Shown here in pieces: positions 4,098-14,761 of a DNA stretch of 64,000 nt; positions within the stretch are counted from its first letter, which is position 1; the number at the start of each line of letters is the position of its first letter. Where the stretch lies: NCBI GenBank assembly GCA_965237525.1, contig CBDEFO010000008.1, positions 640,001-704,000 of the forward strand, written 5' to 3'. Under the pieces are notes generated by a model. That model searched no databases. It was not told the origin of the DNA and was given only the letters and a program-made list of their open reading frames with translations. The stretch comes from Candidatus Latescibacterota bacterium (GTDB taxonomy: Bacteria > Latescibacterota > CBDEFO01). Both the position numbers and the translations under genes were made by a program.

Positions 4098-4427
4098 CTA
4101 TTCCCCCTGTTCCTTCATCTCCTTTTCCATCTTCTCCTGTCTGACTGCTGACAGATGCTCCTCCTTTTCCTTTAACTCCGTCTCGAGCTCCTTGATAGTC
4201 TCTATGAGCCTGGTTACCTCTTCGTCCTTCTCGATGTTCGACTTTCCCTCTTGGATGAGCCGATATACGGTGATCCCTAACTCGGTTTGCGTCCCTTTTA
4301 TCCTGTTTTTGACGTTAGCCACGTTGAGTCTGGCCTTGCTCACTCTTGTCAGATCCTCGGTGGTCTCCACGATTGTAGAAACCCCCTCGCTGACGGTCTT
4401 TTTTACCTTATCCCAAACTCCTGCCAT
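4098..4427 (-). CDS. Small helical/coiled-coil hypothetical protein
   Basis: 109-aa ORF 7 nt downstream of the BMC gene, with GAGG-type RBS; amphipathic N-terminus and charged C-terminal coiled coil. Confidence 0.7.
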   Translation of the reverse strand: MAGVWDKVKKTVSEGVSTIVETTEDLTRVSKARLNVANVKNRIKGTQTELGITVYRLIQEGKSNIEKDEEVTRLIETIKELETELKEKEEHLSAVRQEKMEKEMKEQGE

Positions 4428-4434
4428 TTTTGGT

Positions 4435-4917
4435 TCACCTCTTTTCTCTGGCTTTTCTGATCTCCCCAGTTAACTTCTCTTTGTTGGCTGATGAAATCTG
4501 CCTCCCCTTTATACTCAATCCTTGGATGCCGCGGGCCAATCTTCTGAGTTGCACAACCGTCATAGAATCCAGATCGTTAGAAGGGACGTCACCGACTTTG
4601 GAGGGATCCTCTACTCCTGCCTCAGCCCTTTCCCTTGAAATGTCCCTCAGACCAAGCACATTTATGAGATCGCCATAGGGTCTGGGTATAACGTGCATGC
4701 TTACAAGCTCGCCCACTTCTTTGACGGCCTCTCCGCCTGCACTCACCGCAGCCTGCACAGAACCCACATCGCCTATGATACTTATCATAACCAGTCCCCC
4801 TGTGGTCAGTTTGTAAGAGACTACTTCTACGTTCGCGGCCTTAGCAGCCGCATCGGCAGCCTCCACAACACCCACAAATCCCTTAGTCTCTATAAGTCCT
4901 AGTGCCTTTTCTTCCAT
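4435..4917 (-). CDS. Bacterial microcompartment shell protein (BMC-H) with C-terminal helical extension
   Basis: 'ALGLIETKGFVGVVEAADAAAKAANVE...GDVGSVQAAV...HVIPRP' is the Pfam BMC pattern; likely start ATG at 4917. Confidence 0.9.
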   Translation of the reverse strand: MEEKALGLIETKGFVGVVEAADAAAKAANVEVVSYKLTTGGLVMISIIGDVGSVQAAVSAGGEAVKEVGELVSMHVIPRPYGDLINVLGLRDISRERAEAGVEDPSKVGDVPSNDLDSMTVVQLRRLARGIQGLSIKGRQISSANKEKLTGEIRKAREKR

Positions 4918-5118
4918 ATTAGGGCTCCGCATGAGGGCTCCACTTAGGGCTCCGCCAATTCTAAGTTAAGCCGACAGGACATCTCCCATCCCTTAAGATT
5001 TCTTCGCTGACCCTTCGCTTCGCTCTGGGCTTCCCCTGACCACCGATAGAGTCAATCGGGGACTCGCAATGACACCCTTTGACTTGACCCTCAGTCGTTG
5101 CAAGGGGTGGAACCCCGA

Positions 5119-5170: not shown

Positions 5171-6187
5171 TTAATCCGCGAAATGCCGGTATCCTGAGCT
5201 CTCCAATTTCTCTTTTTTTCCATCGCCGTAGACAATATGGATCCCCTCTTTTGGATCTGTGATATTGCCTATAACTGACATGGGAGTTCCTGTCCTCTCC
5301 TGGAGAGAATATTTTACTTTCTGGACATCCGATTCCCCGAGCGTAAAGAGGAGCTCAAAGTCCTCGCCACCCGACAGGGCGTATTCCATACCAGTAGAAG
5401 AATCTTGGGCCGCCACTTGACGGGTGGCGCTATGTATCGGAACTTTATCGGAGAATATCTGCGCCCCTTTGTTGCTCTCTCTGCATATATGATTCATCTC
5501 CGACGACAGCCCGTCGCTTATGTCTATCGCAGCATGGATCGGAGCGACATCTCCCATAGCAAAAGCTTCTGAAATTCTGGGATAAGGTCGGCGATATCTT
5601 TCTTTTAAATAATCTAAATCTGCAGAGTCAAGATTAAAATTTGCGGTTCCAGATAGAAGTTCCAATCCGGCTTTGGAACCCCCTAATGCACCCGTCAGGC
5701 AGATTGCGTCACCGATCTGAGCGACGCTTCGAAGAGTCAACCTTTCTTTATTCGTCCTCCCCAAGACTGAAATCGAAATTACAGCCGAATCTGGAGACGA
5801 TGTAGTATCTCCGCCGATTATGGGACATCCGAACTCCGATCCGACCCGGTCCATCCCACTGTAGAGAGCCTCAACGTCCCCGACGTCCATCTTCTTTGAA
5901 AGGCAAAGGGAGACCAAGGCGCAGACCGGCTCACCTCCCATGGCCGCTATGTCGCTCACGTTAGCGGCCATCGCCCTCCATCCGACATCGCAAAAGGGCA
6001 TGTGCTCCCTTTTGAAGTGCACTCCTTCTACTAAAGTGTCGGACGCAAATAGCAAGAGATTTCCATCCTCTGCCTCTAAAACAGCAGTATCATCTCCAAT
6101 GCCAATTATAACGAATTTTTGGGGTGTTGTCACGCATTTTTTTATTCTGTCTATAAGGCCAAACTCTCCCAAATCTGTTATATTCAT
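5171..6187 (-). CDS. thiL: Thiamine-monophosphate kinase
   Basis: 'LGEFGLID', 'GIGDDTAV', 'NVSDIAAMGGEP', 'IIGGDT', 'IDISDGL', 'GGEDFELLFT'. Confidence 0.97.
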   Translation of the reverse strand: MNITDLGEFGLIDRIKKCVTTPQKFVIIGIGDDTAVLEAEDGNLLLFASDTLVEGVHFKREHMPFCDVGWRAMAANVSDIAAMGGEPVCALVSLCLSKKMDVGDVEALYSGMDRVGSEFGCPIIGGDTTSSPDSAVISISVLGRTNKERLTLRSVAQIGDAICLTGALGGSKAGLELLSGTANFNLDSADLDYLKERYRRPYPRISEAFAMGDVAPIHAAIDISDGLSSEMNHICRESNKGAQIFSDKVPIHSATRQVAAQDSSTGMEYALSGGEDFELLFTLGESDVQKVKYSLQERTGTPMSVIGNITDPKEGIHIVYGDGKKEKLESSGYRHFAD

Positions 6188-6192
6188 AGCCG

Positions 6193-7281
6193 CTACCTCT
6201 CGTACTCCCTGTCCAACTTTATCTTATAGTCCTCCGTCAGAATATTTTCCCCCTTATACAGCGCGTTAATGTTTGTCTCCTGCCTCTTCATATAAGGATA
6301 CGGGAGCATGCCCACCAGATAGATCGGATAGAGAATTGCAAAAAACCCTAAGAAAAAGTCCTGGAAAGAGTGCAAAAAGCGGACATTCCCGTATTCAGCA
6401 TAGAAATCAGCAAGTGGATCTAAGAGTCCAAGCGATATATCTCCGCTATTTCCGACCATCTTCAGGAAATCCTGTAAATATAAGACCCCCGCTATGCCCG
6501 CTACCATGCTCGTCCACCCCACAAGTCGCACCCTCCTTTTGATCTTGCGTATCTTGCCGTGGTTTTCCCTGTAGAACCTCTCCAGATAGTCTCTCAGCCA
6601 ACCACACCTGTGATTCATCCTGAAGTATTCTACGTAATCATCAAGGAACAGCCCACTTTTTTCTATCTCCTCTATGGCCGTTCCTTTCACCAAATTTATG
6701 ATGTATCCCAACTGCGAAGCCCTGTTCATCTTTGAAACTGATCTTAGCCTCTTTCTATCCGACAGAAAGTCCTGACAGCAAGCGTCCAAGGAGAAGAATA
6801 TCTCCTCAATTCGCTCTATGCGCTCCCCAAGTTCCTCCAAGTCCCAAGCGCCTTCTTGCTTAAAGAGATCCAAAAAGAGTCTGAGCTTCGCATCTAAGGA
6901 GCAGAGCTTTACATCGTCCTCCCGATGCCTGCGCTCAGACCAATCGAGGCAATCTATATGGAGGCCGTCTATCTGGTACTCTGACGTGCTCTTTATAAGG
7001 GACGCCAGAGACGAAAACGACTCCGACTTTAGAGCCATGTCCAATACGACATCTACCTTATTCCGTCCGGTGATAACCCCAGACAGACCCAGCTTCTGCC
7101 TTATGACCTCCAAAAAAGTGGAGAAGTACTTTTCCGCTATCAGCACATACCTGTAGTGGAGGGAATCTATGAAATGCGACAGCGCATCTTTTAGAAGCTC
7201 CTCCTGCTGTACTTCATATTCCCTTAGCCCCTCTGCACCTGAAGTCTGAAGGAGATCCTCTAATAGCTTTTTTCTATCCAT
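6193..7281 (-). CDS. Hypothetical membrane protein (helical N-terminal region, two C-terminal TM helices)
   Basis: 362-aa ORF; hydrophobic segments 'LVGWTSMVAGIAGVLYL' and 'FFLGFFAILYPIYLVGMLPY'; overlaps upstream gene and ends 5 nt before thiL. Confidence 0.75.
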   Translation of the reverse strand: MDRKKLLEDLLQTSGAEGLREYEVQQEELLKDALSHFIDSLHYRYVLIAEKYFSTFLEVIRQKLGLSGVITGRNKVDVVLDMALKSESFSSLASLIKSTSEYQIDGLHIDCLDWSERRHREDDVKLCSLDAKLRLFLDLFKQEGAWDLEELGERIERIEEIFFSLDACCQDFLSDRKRLRSVSKMNRASQLGYIINLVKGTAIEEIEKSGLFLDDYVEYFRMNHRCGWLRDYLERFYRENHGKIRKIKRRVRLVGWTSMVAGIAGVLYLQDFLKMVGNSGDISLGLLDPLADFYAEYGNVRFLHSFQDFFLGFFAILYPIYLVGMLPYPYMKRQETNINALYKGENILTEDYKIKLDREYER

Positions 7282-7535
7282 TCTCCTTCTCCTGTTTCCT
7301 CTTTAATAGACATATCCAACAGGGCGTTGAGGTAGTTTCTTGTCACTATGCTGTACGCCTCCTCGACATCCAGGTCTCTTTCTGCTCTATCTGATAAGTG
7401 AGCCCTTCGTATCGAAGCGATTCTCCAGTTGACCGAATCTATCAACTCCGATAGCGGTTCGTAATCTTCCCCGTCCTCTCCCTGCTGCAGTGGACGCTCC
7501 GCCTTCATTAAGTCTACCACCACCTCGTTCCACAT
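7260..7535 (-). CDS. Small acidic hypothetical protein
   Basis: 91-aa ORF that fills the gap between two co-oriented genes (2-nt gap and 22-nt overlap). Confidence 0.6.
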   Translation of the reverse strand: MWNEVVVDLMKAERPLQQGEDGEDYEPLSELIDSVNWRIASIRRAHLSDRAERDLDVEEAYSIVTRNYLNALLDMSIKEETGEGEWIEKSY

Positions 7536-7537
7536 AT

Positions 7538-10510
7538 TTATGAGGATACGTCGCCTGCGCCCAGGCGCCAGAAATTCTTTCTTATGCCTGTAAGCTGCTC
7601 TTTGGGCGTAAAGCCGCGCTCAAAATCCAGATCGATCCCGGAAAGTCCGCTCGCACTTAAACTTATATCCACAAAGCTTGTGACCCTCCTTTCGAATCTG
7701 CCTCTTGTGCTATCATCCGACTCTGAAATCGCCACTTGCTTGACTCCACTGGGGACAAAATCACCCAAAATTGTCGCCTTTAAGAGCGCTTTCTTGTCCC
7801 TTTTCCCATCTCTCTTGTCCATACCAGAAGGACCCTTAATCTCAGCATCCCGTGTGATCATGGAGTAAAACCCGAAATCCACGATGTAGCAGCCGTACTC
7901 AGGATCTCTGCTCTTGTGCTCTCCGAAGAAAAGACATCCCTTGCTATAATACTTTTTAGCACTATTCACACTGATAGCCTTATCCTTTATACCTTTGCGA
8001 TCTATAATGACCGCCTCTATGATCTCCTGATTGTCCAGAGGGGAAAATATCTCTGTGAAGGACCTGTGCAAATCGGATATTTTTCGCATGAAATCGCTTA
8101 TGGGGATGCTATCTTTGCCCTTTTTCTTGTTCTCTTCGTCCCATCTTTTCAGAACGTAAAGCCCCAATATCCACAGCAAGAGCAAAACAGAGATAGATAC
8201 ATATAGATTCTCTCTGGCATACCCTATGGAATGAGACAATATATAGTTCAGCTTATCTCTGATAAAGTCGTTGTAGACCGCTCTAATGCGATTAAACAGG
8301 ATCATCCACGGCCCTTCCTTTGTGCGGATACCCGAAGCGTCAAATATCCTCCATCCCATCCCCGGTATGTAAGCCTCTATCCATCCGTGTCCCGGAGGAG
8401 ACGCAGTGCCGGGTTTTGTCCTATACCCCACCACCAGACGGGTCGGAATCTCAAATTGATCCCGCACTATCGCTGCTAAAACAGTGTTGGCGACATCGCA
8501 GTCTCCCACCATGTACTTCAGTGCCGTATCTACGATATTCATCTGGCTGTTTTTGAAGACCCTGGATGTTCTCCTGCTGGTGCTGTACAACATGGTATTT
8601 TTGAGATAATCTTCCACCGCCTCCACCTGCGTTTCAGAATCCAGGCCGTAAAGGGAATTAAGACCGTTGAATATCTCTGCAGGATAAGCGATGTCAAAGG
8701 GCACCTGCGTATATTTGTGAAATTGGGCCTCGGTCAACTCCTCGGGCTCATAGATCCTGTCCCCATTCCCGTCCTGCGTGAGGACATTGTATCTAACCTG
8801 CCCGTCGAATTTTCTCCCCACCTCTACAGTCATCTCGCCTAGTTTGTTTACGTAAATTTCATCTATTTGGCTGTCGTTAAGACCAAACCATAAGGCGGTG
8901 GAATTAAAGGGCATCAGGACGACGATTTTTCCTTTTCTGGACTGAACTTTCCATTCGAACTCGAAATTCCTCCCCCGATTCTCCACATTCGGCCTTTGTG
9001 GCATTTCCAAAAGGGGCGAGTCTGTGCTACTTATACGATGGAACCTTTCTCTGCTTTTGGCCCAAGTTCCGTCCGGCAGCAGAATATCATATACCCCGGA
9101 CTTGAGATAGAGAACTTTTTTCGGTGTAAAATGAAGAAATGGAGGCGCGCCGTCCACAGCCCAAGAAATGCGGGGCTTGTGAATGGTGCTCGATGCATTT
9201 CCGTCTAACTCCGATTCTGCCACCTTGCTCCTGGACGACCCAAGTTTCATCTGGATTGAGTGAGCAATCGGATACAATCCCAGCGTCAAAATAGTTATCA
9301 ATATAAAGGGAAAAAAGAAAAAGGAGTTAAACGTCCTGACGTTCCTGTTCTGTAATATATCCCTTATCACCCTTCCAAAGGAGGGTCTGTATCTTTTCAA
9401 AAATCTCCACTCGTAAGCGTTGACAGAGGAGATATTCTCCTTCAAATAATAGTAAAAGCCCGTCTTTATGCCGTCCATCTTTCCGGTTATCGACTCCTCC
9501 AGATCCCCGGGGATGTTCTCCCTTGTCCTTGGGAGCAAAACGTTTGAAGGGAGTGCGAACGTGCTCTGAGTCATCCCATCGCGGCTCGGTCTTTTAAATC
9601 CGACCCAGCCTCCCTGAAGGAATACCTCTTCGGCAGAGGAGCGGTCCACAGCCCGTAAAGAGACGTCGACGGAGATCTTTCTATCTTCATAGTCGTATTC
9701 CTCTTTGGTTCTGTACGTCTTAATCCTTCCGCCCTTTGTCTCAGAATTGCCTGAGACGGGCTCTCCATTGACGGTCAAAAGATATTTACCTTCAGTCTGA
9801 TATGTCCCCACCTTGGAGAAGAAATCGGTAGGGTTGGCTGAATTTAAAACCAGCCCTTTAAGTGTGATCTTGGTTCCCTCAAATATGTCGCTCTTTTCGC
9901 CGATCCTCAGCGTATATCTATTCGGGCTTGCAGGCGACGATGGTCGATTGGAATATTCCCCATCTTTCCATGCGCGCGTCAGACCTCCATGTGATTCTAT
10001 CGTCACTTCGTGGCTGTACTCCAGGGCGGGCTTGAAGCCGATGCCGTGACCTCCATATTGATTCTCCTTTCCCATCTTTGTGGTATCGCCTATGGAAAGA
10101 AGCTTGAAAAGAACGTCGTGGAGGATCATCCCCAGAGCCCAATCCCTTATTGACACGTCGAATAGGTTGGGGCCATTCTGCTCCCAGCTTACCTCTATTC
10201 TTAACGGATACTCTATATGACCTCCGCTCTCTAAAAGATGAGTGGTCAGATCGTCGTACGCGTCCGTCACGTTCTGACATCCTATCTCTCTTAGAACCCT
10301 CTCCCCATCCAAGAGCTGATGCCTGACAATGTGGTCAATTCTCTTTCTGATGTTCTCTAAATTTGCTCTTTGCCCGGCCCTTTTCAATATCCATCCGATC
10401 CGGTCCAGGTCCAAATTTCCCACTGCTATCTCCCTGGAAAATGCCTCGACAAGCTTCGGATCGCACCTGACCGCTTCCAAAAGAGCGTATTCAAACTCTA
10501 TAAAATCCAT
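7538..10510 (-). CDS. Membrane protein: GHKL (Hsp90-like) ATPase + TM + transglutaminase-like domain + TM
   Basis: GHKL motifs 'LREIGCQNVTDA', 'IRDWALGM', 'GGHGIGF', 'GTKITL'; TM 'FFFPFILITILTLGLYPIA'; transglutaminase 'GDCD...IPTRLVVGY...HGWIEAYIPGMGWRIFDA'; TM 'ISVLLLLWILGLYVL'. Confidence 0.8.
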   Translation of the reverse strand: MDFIEFEYALLEAVRCDPKLVEAFSREIAVGNLDLDRIGWILKRAGQRANLENIRKRIDHIVRHQLLDGERVLREIGCQNVTDAYDDLTTHLLESGGHIEYPLRIEVSWEQNGPNLFDVSIRDWALGMILHDVLFKLLSIGDTTKMGKENQYGGHGIGFKPALEYSHEVTIESHGGLTRAWKDGEYSNRPSSPASPNRYTLRIGEKSDIFEGTKITLKGLVLNSANPTDFFSKVGTYQTEGKYLLTVNGEPVSGNSETKGGRIKTYRTKEEYDYEDRKISVDVSLRAVDRSSAEEVFLQGGWVGFKRPSRDGMTQSTFALPSNVLLPRTRENIPGDLEESITGKMDGIKTGFYYYLKENISSVNAYEWRFLKRYRPSFGRVIRDILQNRNVRTFNSFFFFPFILITILTLGLYPIAHSIQMKLGSSRSKVAESELDGNASSTIHKPRISWAVDGAPPFLHFTPKKVLYLKSGVYDILLPDGTWAKSRERFHRISSTDSPLLEMPQRPNVENRGRNFEFEWKVQSRKGKIVVLMPFNSTALWFGLNDSQIDEIYVNKLGEMTVEVGRKFDGQVRYNVLTQDGNGDRIYEPEELTEAQFHKYTQVPFDIAYPAEIFNGLNSLYGLDSETQVEAVEDYLKNTMLYSTSRRTSRVFKNSQMNIVDTALKYMVGDCDVANTVLAAIVRDQFEIPTRLVVGYRTKPGTASPPGHGWIEAYIPGMGWRIFDASGIRTKEGPWMILFNRIRAVYNDFIRDKLNYILSHSIGYARENLYVSISVLLLLWILGLYVLKRWDEENKKKGKDSIPISDFMRKISDLHRSFTEIFSPLDNQEIIEAVIIDRKGIKDKAISVNSAKKYYSKGCLFFGEHKSRDPEYGCYIVDFGFYSMITRDAEIKGPSGMDKRDGKRDKKALLKATILGDFVPSGVKQVAISESDDSTRGRFERRVTSFVDISLSASGLSGIDLDFERGFTPKEQLTGIRKNFWRLGAGDVSS

Positions 10511-12930
10511 TGTGACTTACTTGTGTTTAATATCTTGTATGTCCCTCTTAGATACGCCAGCGAAATTCCGTCATCAGTAGTCCGGAAGACCCTGTGATTT
10601 AAGTTTACTATCAGATGTTTTTTCCCCTTCATCGTCCACAGCACAAAGGGCAGTGGAGCATCTCCATTTAGATGATTTATTGGAAAGACCTCAATGCCTC
10701 CAGCTTCCACCTCTTTGAAGAATTTGCTGAACGAACCGTGCCAACGGGAACTCTTTGACCCGCCTGTTGTGGACGATCCACTATCTATCCCGTTTTGATA
10801 TAGGAAGCTACCGATATCTAAAAGGTGAGGGCTTACCTCAATCCCTGGGAAACGGCTCACATCTATAAGGTAACACCCCTTCAAAAAGAGCAATATATTC
10901 TTGTCTAACTCCGCGTCGAAGGATACTATGTCTCCCCCTTGATCAAGCTGGCTGTAGCTTTTGTGCAGGCGCAACAGTCCTGTTATCTCCTCCTTCGACG
11001 CCCGTCTGTAGAAGTCCTCAAAAAGACCTCTATCCTGAAGGAAGTTATAAAGTACCGATTCGAACTTTCGGAGCTGTTCCTTCTTGGAAAATTCCTCCCT
11101 TATATACTCAAGATAAGGGATCACTCCTCCTTTGACAAGGTTGTAATTATAGTAAGACACCGCTTGGCTCTTTACGAAGTGATCCCTTCCCTCCACAGGG
11201 TCCAGGACAACAGGATAGTTTACCACAAGGTTGAAGGGTCTCGACTCGGAATGAAAGAATATGTCCCCCGAAAGAACCCTGAATTCTCCCATGTCTCCTT
11301 GCGTCCGGTAATCTATCCCCGCCTGAATTGTACCTCTTTCTGTCCCTATTTGATACACCTTTGTAAGTCTTGTGAACCTGTAAGGATTCTGTTTGTTGAT
11401 CCTTTTCCTTCCGATGTAGACCTGCATCTCGGATTTGGATATGTTCTCAAGGTAGAGTTTAACTACGGTCTCCCTTTTCCTGTTTAATTCTCGGAGGCGG
11501 TTCCCCTTGAATACAAGTCCTTTCACAGCTCCGTATTCGCTCCTATCGCCGTAGAACATGTTCACCGTTACGCCTCTTTTTTTCCTTGAAGCCTTGGAAA
11601 ACCCTATAAACAGCTCCCCATCCTTCAGAGAATATCTGTTTCGGTATGTCTTATCTCTTTGCAGTGGAGATTCCGATTTTGAAATGACTATCACCTCTCC
11701 TCTTCCCTCCAACACCTCAACGAGCTTGGCTTTGCTGCCTATCCCCAGACGTCCTCTGCTGGTTACCACTCCTTTTTCGTTCAGTTTTTTCGACTCGTTA
11801 AAGAGCGGATACGTCCCGAACAGAAACTGCGGCTCCATAGCCAGCCCATCGTCTTCTATTGAGCAGCCGTTGTAGCAAAATTTGAAGACTACTTTAGACG
11901 ACTTGTGATCTAAACTGTTCTGTCCCTCTTCGGCCAAGTACCTTATGTGTAGAGGAAATTGATACTTTATCGAATCCTTCGTGTTGGACGATATTTCTCC
12001 TGAGGAGAAATCTATCTCCTCAAACGACAGCCGGTTGAAATGGATGAGGCTATAGACCAACTGAACTTTCCTTTTCAACTTATCCTCACCTTCTCCCTCG
12101 GGATAGAGCAAGTTCACAGAATCGTCCAGCCAGGAAAGCTCCTTAAGTTCCTCCTTCAAATCCATATCAAAGGAAAAAGTCTGAGAATCTATGTAAGCTA
12201 CAACCTCAGGCACTCGTATTTGATCTATCTTCTGCTTGTAGTGCAGATCCAATCGTTCAAATACCGCCTCTAATCTTGAGAAACTCCTGCTTACGTATTC
12301 CCGCAATATTTCAGCAGTTCTCCTCCAGGACCCCCGAGAGGTTATCTTATAATCTCTGTCAAACGGGAAGTCCTCCACAAGACTTTTGAACTCTAAGAAC
12401 TCATCAGAAGCAGAATCGTTCCGCTCTGAAATCAGATTCTTGAGCATAACGAACGACTCGTTGACGAGCGTTCTCTTGAAAGAGTCGTCTTCGAGTCTCC
12501 TGTAGCTCTCCTCTATCTTGCTGAGCTTTATATACGCCTCGCGCCTTAGATTGTCCCCTATATCGTGCACGTTGGACTTGCACATATATAGAGGAATAGA
12601 GCCTTCGGCATAGTTCCTATCCAGCCTCAGCAGTGACTCCAGGCGATTCCTGAAGTGGAGGAGAGACAGATGTCTCTTAAATTCCTCTCCCCATTTCAAG
12701 CTCAGCTCTCCGAGATCCTCATCCAGAATCTTAACCACAAGGTCGATGAACCTGGCGTAATCGTCCTTTCTGGCCTGAGAGAAGGTGAGCATCTCCTCCA
12801 GGGAAATCTCTATTTCCAACAAATCTCCGTCACGGAGTGGTCGCACGCGGAGTGTACGTCGCACCACCTCTCTTTCCAGATAGGGAGTTCTGGTTATAAA
12901 GTCAGCAGCTTTTTCTATAGCTTTCCTCAT
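10498..12930 (-). CDS. Large soluble protein with divergent GHKL/Hsp90-like ATPase domain
   Basis: 'SIEDDGLAM' (DxGxGM-like), 'RGRLGIGSK' (GxxGxG), 'RGVTV'; Hsp90-like 'LDPVEGRD' and C-terminal 'LIVNLNHRV'; no clear ExxxN motif. Confidence 0.65.
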   Translation of the reverse strand: MRKAIEKAADFITRTPYLEREVVRRTLRVRPLRDGDLLEIEISLEEMLTFSQARKDDYARFIDLVVKILDEDLGELSLKWGEEFKRHLSLLHFRNRLESLLRLDRNYAEGSIPLYMCKSNVHDIGDNLRREAYIKLSKIEESYRRLEDDSFKRTLVNESFVMLKNLISERNDSASDEFLEFKSLVEDFPFDRDYKITSRGSWRRTAEILREYVSRSFSRLEAVFERLDLHYKQKIDQIRVPEVVAYIDSQTFSFDMDLKEELKELSWLDDSVNLLYPEGEGEDKLKRKVQLVYSLIHFNRLSFEEIDFSSGEISSNTKDSIKYQFPLHIRYLAEEGQNSLDHKSSKVVFKFCYNGCSIEDDGLAMEPQFLFGTYPLFNESKKLNEKGVVTSRGRLGIGSKAKLVEVLEGRGEVIVISKSESPLQRDKTYRNRYSLKDGELFIGFSKASRKKRGVTVNMFYGDRSEYGAVKGLVFKGNRLRELNRKRETVVKLYLENISKSEMQVYIGRKRINKQNPYRFTRLTKVYQIGTERGTIQAGIDYRTQGDMGEFRVLSGDIFFHSESRPFNLVVNYPVVLDPVEGRDHFVKSQAVSYYNYNLVKGGVIPYLEYIREEFSKKEQLRKFESVLYNFLQDRGLFEDFYRRASKEEITGLLRLHKSYSQLDQGGDIVSFDAELDKNILLFLKGCYLIDVSRFPGIEVSPHLLDIGSFLYQNGIDSGSSTTGGSKSSRWHGSFSKFFKEVEAGGIEVFPINHLNGDAPLPFVLWTMKGKKHLIVNLNHRVFRTTDDGISLAYLRGTYKILNTSKSQWIL

Positions 12931-12959: not shown

Positions 12960-13487
12960 TTACCAGCCTGAGGCAGTGCGGTCTATGATATCCTTGGCTA
13001 ACATCTCCATAGCAGCCAATTTCCCCTCTTCCCTTTCATCTTCGCTATCACCCGACTCGGCGCTGTACGTCCCCCATCCCTCCAGGACCTCTTCCTCCCA
13101 GAGCACTTTGTCCTTCTTCTCGTCGAAATAGGAGATCTGGGCAAAGATGCGAATCCTGAAACTTTGAGCCTCTTCCTTTGCGCTGTAGGTAAACGGCTCA
13201 TCTTTTATCCTCAGCACTACCCCCCGTATTATCGAATCGGCTCTATCTTCGTCTACGACCCTAAGACTGCCATCATCCACCAGACCGTCAATCACCACAT
13301 CTGTCAACTGTTCTATTACACCGTACTCAACGCTCTGGTCATCTGAGATCTCAAAGAGCGGCACCGCCACCGTCTTGATGTGAGCGTAGGAAGAACTGGA
13401 CATCGAATAGATTCCGCACGCTGAAAGGACACAAAGGACAGTAGACAGTAGACAGTAGAGGTTATTTATCAAATGAAATCGGTGCAC
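12960..13487 (-). CDS. lptE: LptE-family lipoprotein; original 5' end (ATG at 14792) displaced by an IS
   Basis: Lipobox 'LSAC'; 'HIKTVAVPLF', 'LTDVVI', 'ADSIIRG', 'LAKDIIDRTASGW' match the LptE-family pattern. Confidence 0.75.
   Translation of the reverse strand: MHRFHLINNLYCLLSTVLCVLSACGIYSMSSSSYAHIKTVAVPLFEISDDQSVEYGVIEQLTDVVIDGLVDDGSLRVVDEDRADSIIRGVVLRIKDEPFTYSAKEEAQSFRIRIFAQISYFDEKKDKVLWEEEVLEGWGTYSAESGDSEDEREEGKLAAMEMLAKDIIDRTASGW
13440..13459. repeat. AGTAGAC tandem heptamer array, split by the IS and continuing at 14762-14775
   Basis: Removing the IS and one TSD copy leaves (AGTAGAC)x4. Confidence 0.9.
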
Positions 13488-14761
13488 TTCTCTTTCGATC
13501 TTTGATTGATCTTGAATGATAGGTTTTCGACAATCTTTGGTTTCTGTTCTTTTTCAAAATGGATGTATAATTGTTCTTCTTTTAGGTTCCATTCAGCCAG
13601 GACAAAGTAGTTGGTGTAAGAGGAGGGAAGAGATACTTTCTCATTTAGGACATCGATAAAGGCTTTATCTGTCTGTTCTGTGTCCTGTTTGACTTGTCTG
13701 ATAAAATAGGTCTTGGGAATGAAATCTTTCTCGTTTGACTTCTCTTGCTTAGGTGGACGGTAGCCGGTGTATCTCTGTGATGAAAGATTAAACCATTCTA
13801 ACTTCTGATCAACTTCTTGTAAGCTTTTGAACTGAATTCTGTTCCAGAACTTCCTTGAAAATACAGAATTGTTGCCTTCTATAGATGCTTGAGAAAAGGG
13901 CCTTCTGGGAACGGCAAATATCGGAATCACTTGATTTTTCAAGAGAAACTGCATTGCTTTGCTGACATTCCTTTTACCTGAAACACTGCCAATAGTCGCC
14001 GAGCAATTGTCCACCTTAACGAAATCTGGTTTTTCAAACCTGTCAAAGAAAGACTGACACTTCTCGATAAAGTTAGTTGCTGTTTGACCGTCAACCCGCC
14101 GAAAATACCTTAACTTAGGCTCTTTCTTAAAGGAAAATCCAACGAAGTTGACCGGCTCAGTTCTGCCGGTAAGATACTTTTTACCAATAAAGTCTGATTC
14201 TAGGACTCTGCCTCCTGAAAGATAGTAAATGGTATACTCTGGATAACAAAGATAACGAGATGCACCCTTGTTTTTACCTTTCTTCCTTCTCTGGGAAAGT
14301 CCTAAATCTGAAAGCATTCTGCCGATAGTCGGCAACGACGGAGGAGGGGTGCTAGAATATCGATTCCTCCATTCTTGTTCAATAACAGTGGCTCCTGAAT
14401 AGAACTGATAAGGATCGTCCTCTAAGCTATGGTAAATCTCTTTGATTCTCTGTTCGTCAACTTTAGCCAATTTTCGCCTTTTTCCTTTTGGCCAACCCCG
14501 ATTATCTATGGCAAAATCCTGATCCAGAGATTTAGTCCAAGCCGTAACGAAATCATTGGAAACTCTCGCTTGTTTGATAACTTCTCGCTTTGACATTTCT
14601 TTCTTAAAATACATCTCGTTGACTTCTTGTCTTAATACGGCCAATCTCTCTTTGTCCATAGGACTCCGTAGATTAAAGTTAAGACAATCAACTCAACTTA
14701 ATCTACTAATACTCTAAACAAAGATCAAATTAGGTGCACCGATTTCATTTGATATTCAACC
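13460..14761 (-). mobile_element. Complete 1302-bp insertion sequence (DDE/rve-like transposase; family uncertain, IS481-like)
   Basis: 28-bp terminal inverted repeats at 13460-13487 and 14734-14761 (25/28 identical); 6-bp target duplication AGTAGA at 13454-13459 and 14762-14767. Confidence 0.93.
13469..14659 (-). CDS. Transposase (HTH + integrase-like DDE core)
   Basis: Putative D-D-E in 'ESDFIG', 'VKVDN', 'PFSQASIEG'; bounded by TIRs; stop codon inside the TIR. Confidence 0.88.
   Translation of the reverse strand: MDKERLAVLRQEVNEMYFKKEMSKREVIKQARVSNDFVTAWTKSLDQDFAIDNRGWPKGKRRKLAKVDEQRIKEIYHSLEDDPYQFYSGATVIEQEWRNRYSSTPPPSLPTIGRMLSDLGLSQRRKKGKNKGASRYLCYPEYTIYYLSGGRVLESDFIGKKYLTGRTEPVNFVGFSFKKEPKLRYFRRVDGQTATNFIEKCQSFFDRFEKPDFVKVDNCSATIGSVSGKRNVSKAMQFLLKNQVIPIFAVPRRPFSQASIEGNNSVFSRKFWNRIQFKSLQEVDQKLEWFNLSSQRYTGYRPPKQEKSNEKDFIPKTYFIRQVKQDTEQTDKAFIDVLNEKVSLPSSYTNYFVLAEWNLKEEQLYIHFEKEQKPKIVENLSFKINQRSKEKCTDFI

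What the first reader, a model, noticed from the sequence alone, without database searches (positions are those of the whole stretch)
6193..12930. Candidate new system: four-gene block with paired Hsp90/GHKL-like proteins, a transglutaminase-like domain and a membrane partner
Seen: four co-oriented ORFs (810, 990, 91 and 362 aa) with a 13-nt overlap, a 2-nt gap and a 22-nt overlap, wedged between lptE (29 nt away) and thiL (5 nt away). Both large proteins carry GHKL-type motifs and a segment like the Hsp90 middle-domain catalytic loop ('LLPRTRE', 'LDPVEGRD'). Established: GHKL ATPases (Hsp90, MutL, MORC, sacsin) act as dimeric clamps and recur in anti-phage systems. Bacterial transglutaminase-like proteins usually pair with MoxR AAA+ and DUF58/vWA genes, which are absent here. 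Inference: a membrane-associated, ATP-driven protein-modifying or proteolytic complex, for defence or envelope quality control. I do not recognise it as a described system.
Basis: partly seen in the sequence, partly recalled or inferred. Interest (0 to 1): 0.85.

Follow-up and report, generated by a model that had tools for sequence, protein, structure and literature searches.

The report
Paired Hsp90-like ATPases with membrane transglutaminase

Summary
The coordinates are right, but the block is three genes, not four. The 91-aa ORF is the C-terminal tail of the 990-aa ORF, cut off by a 2-nt strain polymorphism; the sister genome encodes one 1082-aa protein. Gene A (810 aa) is a soluble GHKL protein with intact motifs I-III. 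Gene B has an Hsp90-like N+M module (Z 21 to Hsp90/TRAP1), two predicted membrane helices, and between them a TgpA-like domain (Z 19.9) with an intact Cys-His-Asp triad. A lies next to B in 5 of 5 Woesearchaeota/Nanoarchaeota loci, followed by a conserved third gene; D's homology to it is only suggestive. In the host phylum (Latescibacterota) only this genus has A (2 of 168). The scan earlier found, on other DNA, a bacterial two-gene form with a dead partner; I confirmed it (41 of 41 loci). This lineage differs: the partner looks active, there is a third gene, and B nests among relatives with an HExxH motif instead of a transglutaminase. No PADLOC system matches and no paper was found. Likely mechanism: a heterodimeric ATP clamp that gates an extracytoplasmic amide-bond enzyme; binding is untested. 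Defence has little support.

The parts
10498..12930 (-). Gene A, 810 aa, soluble: about 300-aa helical N-terminal extension, GHKL ATPase domain (E334, N338, D341, D360-x-G362, G393/G396/G398, G453), middle domain with invariant R582, C-terminal domain with an 'LIVNLNH' motif
   Evidence: (HATPase_c_3 E 0.045, weak); homologues P0160 and L143-A pass the HATPase_c_3 cut-off; no hydrophobic segment
7538..10510 (-). Gene B, residues 1-990 of a 1082-aa allele; frameshifted near codon 985 in this strain
9341..10381 (-). B: Hsp90-like N (GHKL) plus middle module, about residues 44-390; motif I with a one-residue insertion (E75-x4-N80), D123-x-A-x-G127, G153/G156/G158, G212-T213, invariant R328
   Evidence: AF2 model of the fused allele, pLDDT mostly 80-97 here; Z 21.2, rmsd 5.1, 309 aligned to Hsp90 7l7i; Foldseek TRAP1 E 4e-12
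9266..9322 (-). B: predicted membrane helix 1 (residues 397-415)
   Evidence: hydropathy; same position in most bacterial homologues
8321..9217 (-). B: predicted extracytoplasmic TgpA-like region (432-730) with triad C671, H708, D724
   Evidence: PF01841 E 3e-11; Z 19.9, rmsd 3.5, 248 aligned to the TgpA periplasmic domain 6g49; Cys in 74 of 78 rows, the other 4 being the transglutaminase-less relatives
8150..8206 (-). B: predicted membrane helix 2 (residues 769-787), followed by basic residues
7556..7558 (-). 2-nt insertion in a short GC repeat that splits B from its tail; polymorphic among strains
7260..7535 (-).
6193..7281 (-). Gene D, 362 aa, helical, with a C-terminal hydrophobic segment (309-327); positional counterpart of the conserved third gene of archaeal loci
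   Evidence: z 5.4 against one of 4 homologues; rank 2 of 1809 genome ORFs by summed score; HMM rank 27 of 1809; hhalign not significant
12960..13487 (-). lptE (flank; 5' end interrupted by an IS)
5171..6187 (-). thiL (flank)
13453..14760 (-). IS481-like insertion sequence in the lptE 5' region, upstream of the block; strain-specific

Best explanation
A and B likely form a heterodimeric Hsp90-type ATP clamp on the inner face of the membrane, whose closing would pass through B's two predicted membrane helices to switch or position a TgpA-like Cys-His-Asp enzyme outside the cell that likely cuts or cross-links (iso)peptide bonds in surface or envelope proteins. D would be an accessory membrane subunit. 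Shown: gene order, domain content, catalytic residues and conservation. Predicted: folds and topology. Inferred: A-B binding, coupling across the membrane, substrate and role. In this lineage A looks like the canonical ATPase, while B has a conserved atypical motif I. This would reverse the bacterial form, where the soluble partner lacks the motif I Asn. The module is accessory in this bacterium, probably acquired long ago from an archaeal-type pool, and is broken in some strains.
For: A abuts B with 4-17 nt overlaps in 5 of 5 archaeal loci, plus the window and G001. A second GHKL gene also abuts the B-like gene in 41 of 41 testable bacterial loci; 17 of these built the profile. Tandem GHKL pairs recur in four further Nanoarchaeota-phylum loci, L143, L146, L147 and L153. 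GHKL proteins act as dimers (established knowledge), and a soluble paralogue is the natural second protomer. The fold of B matches Hsp90 N+M and TgpA. The triad is intact in all 74 transglutaminase-bearing rows at the Cys. TgpA's periplasmic domain has transglutaminase activity in vitro (PMC3507681, passages read). PF01841-related enzymes include isopeptidases (PMC10318531, passages read). Transglutaminase-less relatives carry an HExxH motif instead, and one tandem-pair protein passes the WLM cut-off, so the shared theme is a GHKL pair plus an amide-bond enzyme. dN/dS against G001 is 0.35 (A), 0.52 (B) and 0.28 (D), all below 1.
Against: No experiment or expression data exists. A's own fold could not be predicted (pLDDT 33 from a single sequence), so its Hsp90-like middle and C-terminal domains rest on motifs. 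The C-terminal region of B is low-confidence in the model, and profile comparisons of the C-terminal domains between subfamilies were not significant. D's homology is weak. B is frameshifted at two different places in different strains (7557 and 8925), and its dN/dS is higher than thiL (0.18) and the S8 peptidase (0.29), so it may be decaying here. Alignments of the archaeal-type lineage are shallow (6-9 rows).
Confidence: 0.45

Rival explanations
1. Anti-phage or anti-parasite defence: the GHKL pair senses an invader protein and activates the membrane-bound protease, as a Tiamat- or MORC-like conflict system.
For: Patchy distribution and cross-domain spread. Strain-level breaks in B. Weak TmtA matches of the GHKL lid region (E 2e-5 over 39 aa). 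The Tiamat preprint reports effector swapping, including peptidases (10.64898/2026.09.30.754977, section 21 read).
Against: No PADLOC model matches any of the 14 archaeal A, B or D proteins at 1e-5; only the related L143-A has a short TmtA hit. Neighbours are mostly housekeeping: MutS, aminotransferases, RpoE, antiporter. Only L044 has two PDC-type singles nearby and L046 one. Codon usage is native. No nuclease or TPR/DUF3684 core was detected.
Confidence: 0.2
2. Dedicated chaperone and maturase: the clamp folds or holds a cytoplasmic client (perhaps D or a surface protein), and the outer domain modifies it after export; the two halves act in sequence rather than by allosteric coupling.
For: Best structural matches are Hsp90, TRAP1 and GRP94, ahead of topoisomerase and GyrB. 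No PF00183 Hsp90 was found in this 96.6% complete genome. A conserved third gene could be the client.
Against: The module is rare in the phylum (2 of 168), so it is not a general HtpG substitute. The bacterial form has no conserved third gene. B's middle domain is interrupted by membrane helices.
Confidence: 0.2
3. Decaying passenger: an old acquired locus that no longer works in this bacterium.
For: Two independent frameshifts in B among strains (protein P0157). An IS upstream in this strain. B has dN/dS 0.52.
Against: Intact 1082-aa alleles exist in G001 and P0152. All catalytic motifs are kept despite about 75% divergence from archaeal homologues. A and D show purifying selection similar to a neighbouring peptidase. 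The claim concerns only this host, not the system.
Confidence: 0.15

Closest known systems
TgpA (PA2873) of Pseudomonas aeruginosa and the MoxR-DUF58-transglutaminase operon theme
   Same: Membrane-anchored extracytoplasmic domain of the same fold (Z 19.9 over 248 residues) with a Cys-His-Asp triad, encoded in a three-gene unit (PA2875-2874-2873 are co-transcribed, PMC3507681 passages). That PA2875 and PA2874 are MoxR and DUF58 is recalled and echoed in earlier scan notes; those words are not in the paper's text.
   Different: No MoxR or DUF58 in the locus. The ATPase is GHKL-type, fused to the enzyme across the membrane and paired with a second GHKL protein. TgpA is reported essential, whereas B is patchy and broken in some strains.
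Hsp90 / HtpG / TRAP1
   Same: N-terminal GHKL plus middle-domain fold (Z about 21), ATP motifs and an invariant middle-domain Arg. That this Arg is the Hsp90 catalytic-loop Arg is recalled, not checked residue by residue.
   Different: About 15% identity and no PF00183 match. Two membrane helices and an enzyme domain are inserted. The predicted dimer is a heterodimer from two genes, with N-terminal helical extensions.
Tiamat (TmtA) / sacsin-like GHL ATPases
   Same: Hsp90-like ATPase with swappable effectors; a Wss1/WLM-like fold occurs in Tiamat (preprint passages) and in one tandem-pair relative (L153).
   Different: No DUF3684/TPR core and no PD-(D/E)xK nuclease detected; S5-type middle domain kept; membrane-spanning. 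The word transglutaminase does not occur in the preprint's main text.
Unpublished bacterial two-gene GHKL-transglutaminase plus pseudo-ATPase module (earlier scan notes e1-7667891, e1-1122274, e1-1246724)
   Same: B architecture (profile-profile probability 99.9%) and an abutting soluble GHKL partner.
   Different: The partner here lies upstream and keeps E, N, D and G motifs (9 of 9), against 0 of 16 bacterial partners with the motif I Asn. A third gene is present. The GHKL modules form a separate clade that includes transglutaminase-less HExxH proteins.

Membership tests
GHKL ATPase superfamily (gene A) | Motifs I-IV (E-x3-N-x2-D, D-x-G-x-G, G-x2-G-x-G, G/T) | tested here: met
   E334, N338, D341, D360, G362, G393, G396, G398 and G453 invariant in 9 of 9 rows; the second Gly of motif II is G/A/S (Ala in the window); motif IV keeps the Gly, mostly without the Thr; homologues pass the HATPase_c_3 cut-off. 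Motif definitions recalled.
GHKL ATPase superfamily (gene A) | Bergerat fold in a model | tested here: inconclusive
   Single-sequence model pLDDT 33; no PDB sequence hit for profile A4; Atlas neighbours carry HATPase_c_3
GHKL ATPase superfamily (gene B) | Bergerat fold plus S5-type middle domain | tested here: met
   Z 21.2 to Hsp90 over model residues 44-385; Foldseek E 4e-12
GHKL ATPase superfamily (gene B) | Canonical motif I and II spacing | tested here: inconclusive
   All key residues present, but E-x4-N and D-x-A-x-G in the window, G001 and 7 of 8 archaeal-type rows; the effect on hydrolysis is unknown
GHKL ATPase superfamily | ATP hydrolysis and nucleotide-dependent dimerisation | not testable with these tools
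   needs biochemistry
Hsp90/HtpG family | PF00183 match | tested here: not met
   no PF00183 match in A or B or in the genome
Hsp90/HtpG family | Soluble homodimer without membrane helices | tested here: not met
   B has two predicted membrane helices and an inserted enzyme domain
Transglutaminase-like superfamily (PF01841) | Profile match and Cys-His-Asp triad | tested here: met
   E 3e-11, above cut-off; C671, H708, D724; Z 19.9 to 6g49
Transglutaminase-like superfamily (PF01841) | Transamidase versus hydrolase activity | not testable with these tools
   needs an assay
MoxR-DUF58-TgpA operons | Adjacent MoxR AAA+ and DUF58 genes | tested here: not met
   flanks are lptE and thiL; DUF58 genes lie over 1.2 Mb away; no DUF58 or MoxR hit among the 32 neighbours scanned
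Tiamat (TmtA/TmtB) | Full-length TmtA match with DUF3684 core and C-terminal nuclease | tested here: not met
   only a 39-aa GHKL-lid match; no DUF3684 or NOV_C domain by Pfam
Any PADLOC-DB 2.0 system | Component models matched in the system's gene combination | tested here: not met
   (library of 2023; later systems are not covered)
WLM/Wss1-type zincin (C-terminal domain of B) | HExxH motif | tested here: not met
   absent in B; present in relatives P0009, P0076, P0106, L143-B and L153; homology of the domains is not significant

The most novel reading that the evidence does not exclude
A widespread, undescribed class of heterodimeric Hsp90-like clamps acts as transmembrane switches for interchangeable proteolytic or cross-linking effectors. 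The effector is a cytoplasmic HExxH zincin in some members and a transglutaminase plugged between the two membrane helices in others, the latter gained independently in a Woesearchaeota-type lineage and in the Myxococcota-type bacterial lineage. The catalytically dominant protomer is swapped between lineages, and the archaeal-type three-gene version crossed from DPANN archaea into a Latescibacterota bacterium.
Probability: 0.3. Interest if true: 0.85.

Novelty: categorically new. Interest (0 to 1): 0.66.

Why it matters
My searches found no described Hsp90-type ATPase that spans a membrane and controls an enzyme on the far side, nor one that works as a two-gene heterodimer with a swappable protease-type effector. 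Archaea are generally held to lack Hsp90 (recalled), so a conserved Hsp90-like operon in small DPANN genomes points to an unknown surface-remodelling or host-contact function. The triad and ATP-site residues give direct mutational tests. The bacterial form, reported by the Atlas as commonest in Myxococcota, may offer a culturable model.

Tried and rejected
Word-index homologue searches for B and A returned only the window's own cluster; the A profile added one protein. No search of longer or shorter forms was run. The single-sequence fold of A failed. BLASTP of A against B was not significant, and profile-profile A against B was weak (E 0.026). The complex prediction of A(295-805) with B(45-372) and B(940-1070) gave no answer (score 0.03), which is no evidence either way. 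PHROGs gave no useful match. Atlas neighbours of A are mostly viral HATPase_c_3 clusters; this lead was not followed. No RNA holder was listed. The promoter scan was at chance level. No lptE-thiL empty site was found in 7 relative loci; the only same-genus genome also has the block. Independent origin of the archaeal-type and bacterial forms is not established. Transglutaminase-bearing B proteins as one clade were rejected (p-AU 2.5e-6, 36 of 66 rows, group named after seeing a tree). All membrane B proteins as one clade were rejected with unassigned archaeal pairs included (p 0.002) but not after removing them and one long branch (p 0.12). Soluble partners as one clade were not rejected (p 0.115). 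The transglutaminase-domain tree leaves the window's B unresolved outside the bacterial clade (9 of 20 GHKL-free rows were skipped for lacking the anchor motif). Sequencing or assembly error as the cause of the B/C split is unlikely, because contigs from a second study carry it, though at low depth. Literature searches gave no description of this system. One relevant subscription paper on prokaryotic Hsp90-like immune components (recalled) was not held, and bioRxiv supplements could not be seen, so a mention there cannot be excluded.
Full report
Observation. I call them A (10498-12930, 810 aa), B (7538-10510, 990 aa), C (7260-7535, 91 aa) and D (6193-7281, 362 aa). A locus holding the sister genome's 1082-aa protein is titled Candidatus Latescibacterota (L041), which places the host.

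Three genes, not four. In the same-genus genome G001, B and C are one 1082-aa ORF; the window has 2 extra nt near 7557. Two of the 8 members of B's 90% cluster are 1082 aa and a third fragment also reads through. C aligns with the C-terminal domain of distant homologues and equals residues 992-1082. Eight runs were laid. X1 (possibly the source) and X4 show the window allele; X2, X3, X6 and X8 show the fused allele; X5 shows both; X10 does not cover the site. A different 1-nt insertion at 8925 (codon about 529) occurs in X3 and X10 and matches the truncated protein P0157. B is therefore broken in two ways among strains, while intact alleles also exist.

Anatomy of B. Pfam finds Transglut_core at 625-725 (E 3e-11). 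An AF2 model of the natural fused allele from a 78-row alignment has mean pLDDT 74. Residues 44-385 match Hsp90/TRAP1 N+M domains (Z 21.2, rmsd 5.1, 309 aligned; Foldseek E 4e-12). Residues 432-729 match the periplasmic domain of P. aeruginosa TgpA (Z 19.9, rmsd 3.5, 248 aligned). Hydrophobic helices at 397-415 and 769-787 flank the TgpA-like part, and most bacterial homologues show the same two. The predicted topology is N-in, enzyme out, C-in. The triad C671, H708, D724 is conserved; the Cys is missing only in the 4 transglutaminase-less rows of 78. R328 is invariant (78 of 78). In the window, G001 and 7 of 8 archaeal-type rows, motif I has one extra residue (E-x4-N) and motif II reads D-x-A-x-G; bacterial homologues are canonical. 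Residues 896-987 and the tail are poorly predicted.

Anatomy of A and D. A has only a weak Pfam hit itself (HATPase_c_3 E 0.045) and its single-sequence model failed. Its homologues P0160 and L143-A pass the family cut-off, and E334, N338, D341, D360, G362, G393, G396, G398, G453 and R582 are invariant in 9 of 9 rows. It has no membrane segment. D has no family match and one hydrophobic segment at 309-327. The four archaeal third genes are clearly homologous to each other (z 15-115). D scores z 5.4 against one of them and 1.5 or less against the other three, and ranks 2 of 1809 genome ORFs by summed global score but 27 by HMM; hhalign is not significant. I treat D as a probable, not proven, orthologue.

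Conservation. phmmer over 1.84 billion representatives gave 193 hits. The five best non-self hits (E 1e-55 to 1e-68) share the whole architecture, and two of them are named Woesearchaeota. A pattern scan of genome contigs gave 6 loci from 78 matches: the sister genome and 5 Nanoarchaeota/Woesearchaeota records. In 5 of 5, an A homologue (24-25% identity) overlaps the start of B by 4-17 nt. A third gene follows in 4 of 4 complete loci, and its start is seen at the contig end in the fifth (E 9e-5). The form is rare. Full-length A occurs in 2 of 168 genomes of the host phylum, both of this genus, and in 2 of 401 of the archaeal phylum sample, one being the search centre. Full-length B occurs in 1 of 401 of the order sample, the centre itself. 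Codon usage of A, B and D is native, so any acquisition is old. dN/dS against G001 is 0.35, 0.52 and 0.28, against 0.18 for thiL, 0.29 for the S8 peptidase and 1.29 for the short glycosylase-like gene, on few changes.

Wider family. Of the 160 stored proteins, 79 carry both GHKL and transglutaminase parts. The Atlas has a 108-member cluster of this architecture, commonest in Myxococcota, and the two subfamilies align at 99.9%. In 80 metagenome loci of that bacterial form, a 500-600-aa GHKL-like gene follows within 900 nt in 41 of 41 loci where B's end and enough flank were present; 17 of these built the profile. It lacks the motif I Asn in 16 of 16 rows where the motif was located (of 17). No third gene is conserved there. 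This agrees with three earlier notes of this scan on other DNA. New here: four further archaeal loci hold tandem GHKL pairs without a detected transglutaminase (L143, L146 with three pairs, L147, L153). L143 has an A homologue (E 3e-45) followed by a B homologue whose two membrane helices form a bare hairpin and whose C-terminus has HEYAH. L153's second protein passes the WLM cut-off. In a 66-row tree of GHKL plus middle modules, the window's B groups with archaeal-type B (95/87), nested among HExxH proteins (100/95), and the window's A groups with archaeal A (100/98); bacterial B is a separate clade. Transglutaminase-bearing B proteins are not one clade (p-AU 2.5e-6). Whether all membrane B proteins share one origin is unresolved (p 0.002, 0.12). 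The window's A and B are sister to, not inside, the five-locus archaeal clade, and several basal rows have no taxonomy, so archaea-to-bacterium transfer is likely but not shown.

Mechanism. GHKL proteins work as ATP-gated dimers (established knowledge). A gene for a soluble GHKL paralogue that always abuts a membrane-anchored one, across two domains of life and in either order, most simply supplies the second protomer. Because the enzyme domain hangs between two helices rooted in the clamp's middle region, clamp closure would be placed to move it. I therefore favour an ATP-gated, membrane-spanning amide-bond enzyme for surface proteins (0.45). The rivals are defence (0.2), a sequential chaperone and maturase (0.2), and a decayed passenger in this host (0.15). 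TgpA's periplasmic domain has transglutaminase activity in vitro and its three-gene unit is co-transcribed (PMC3507681, passages). Related folds include isopeptidases (PMC10318531, passages), so cutting and cross-linking are both open. Defence has little support: no PADLOC model matches the 14 archaeal A, B and D proteins, and neighbours are mostly housekeeping.

Known or new. It fails the defining tests for HtpG, Tiamat, MoxR-DUF58-TgpA and PADLOC 2.0 systems. Searches found no description. I read passages of PMC8195603 and PMC3710099 and the abstract, passages and section 21 of the Tiamat preprint, none of which describes it; other papers were seen only as search listings. Subscription papers and bioRxiv supplements were not visible. 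Verdict: a real, rare, undescribed operon of three genes, a distinct lineage of an unpublished paired-GHKL membrane enzyme class; interest 0.66.

Noticed in passing
window 13453-14760: An IS481-like element (1308 bp, terminal inverted repeats) sits in the lptE 5' region, in a CTACTGT-repeat tract, and removes the N-terminal codons seen in G001. An in-frame GTG inside the IS end could supply a new start. The IS-free allele is seen in run X3.
   Followed up: partly
G000, six of eight contigs: The same IS has 49 near-identical copies (1250 nt or more, 98.8% identity or more), while G001 has only diverged partial matches: a recent burst.
   Followed up: partly
window 8925: A second, independent frameshift allele of gene B (1-nt insertion in an A5 run) in runs X3 and X10 and protein P0157.
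   Followed up: partly
L146:6635-20000 (G238): Three tandem copies of a GHKL pair (680-708 aa canonical plus 935-1115 aa degenerate, membrane-helix-bearing partner) in a Nanoarchaeota-phylum genome, with no transglutaminase detected.
   Followed up: no
L143:8847-12558 (G235); L153:8070-11917 (G352): GHKL pairs whose second protein ends in an HExxH zincin-like domain (WLM match in L153) instead of carrying a transglutaminase.
   Followed up: partly
window 4098-4932 and L037: thiL followed by a BMC-domain gene and a 109-120-aa coiled-coil gene is syntenic in another family of the phylum (G002), where the gene upstream of thiL is unrelated to the block.
   Followed up: no
G000 whole genome: No PF00183 (Hsp90/HtpG) match in this 96.6% complete genome; five PF01841 matches in all.
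   Followed up: no
proteins P0008, P0011, P0030, P0047: Large transglutaminase-like proteins without GHKL (three with Pfam TPR hits) whose catalytic domain resembles B's; context not examined.
   Followed up: no
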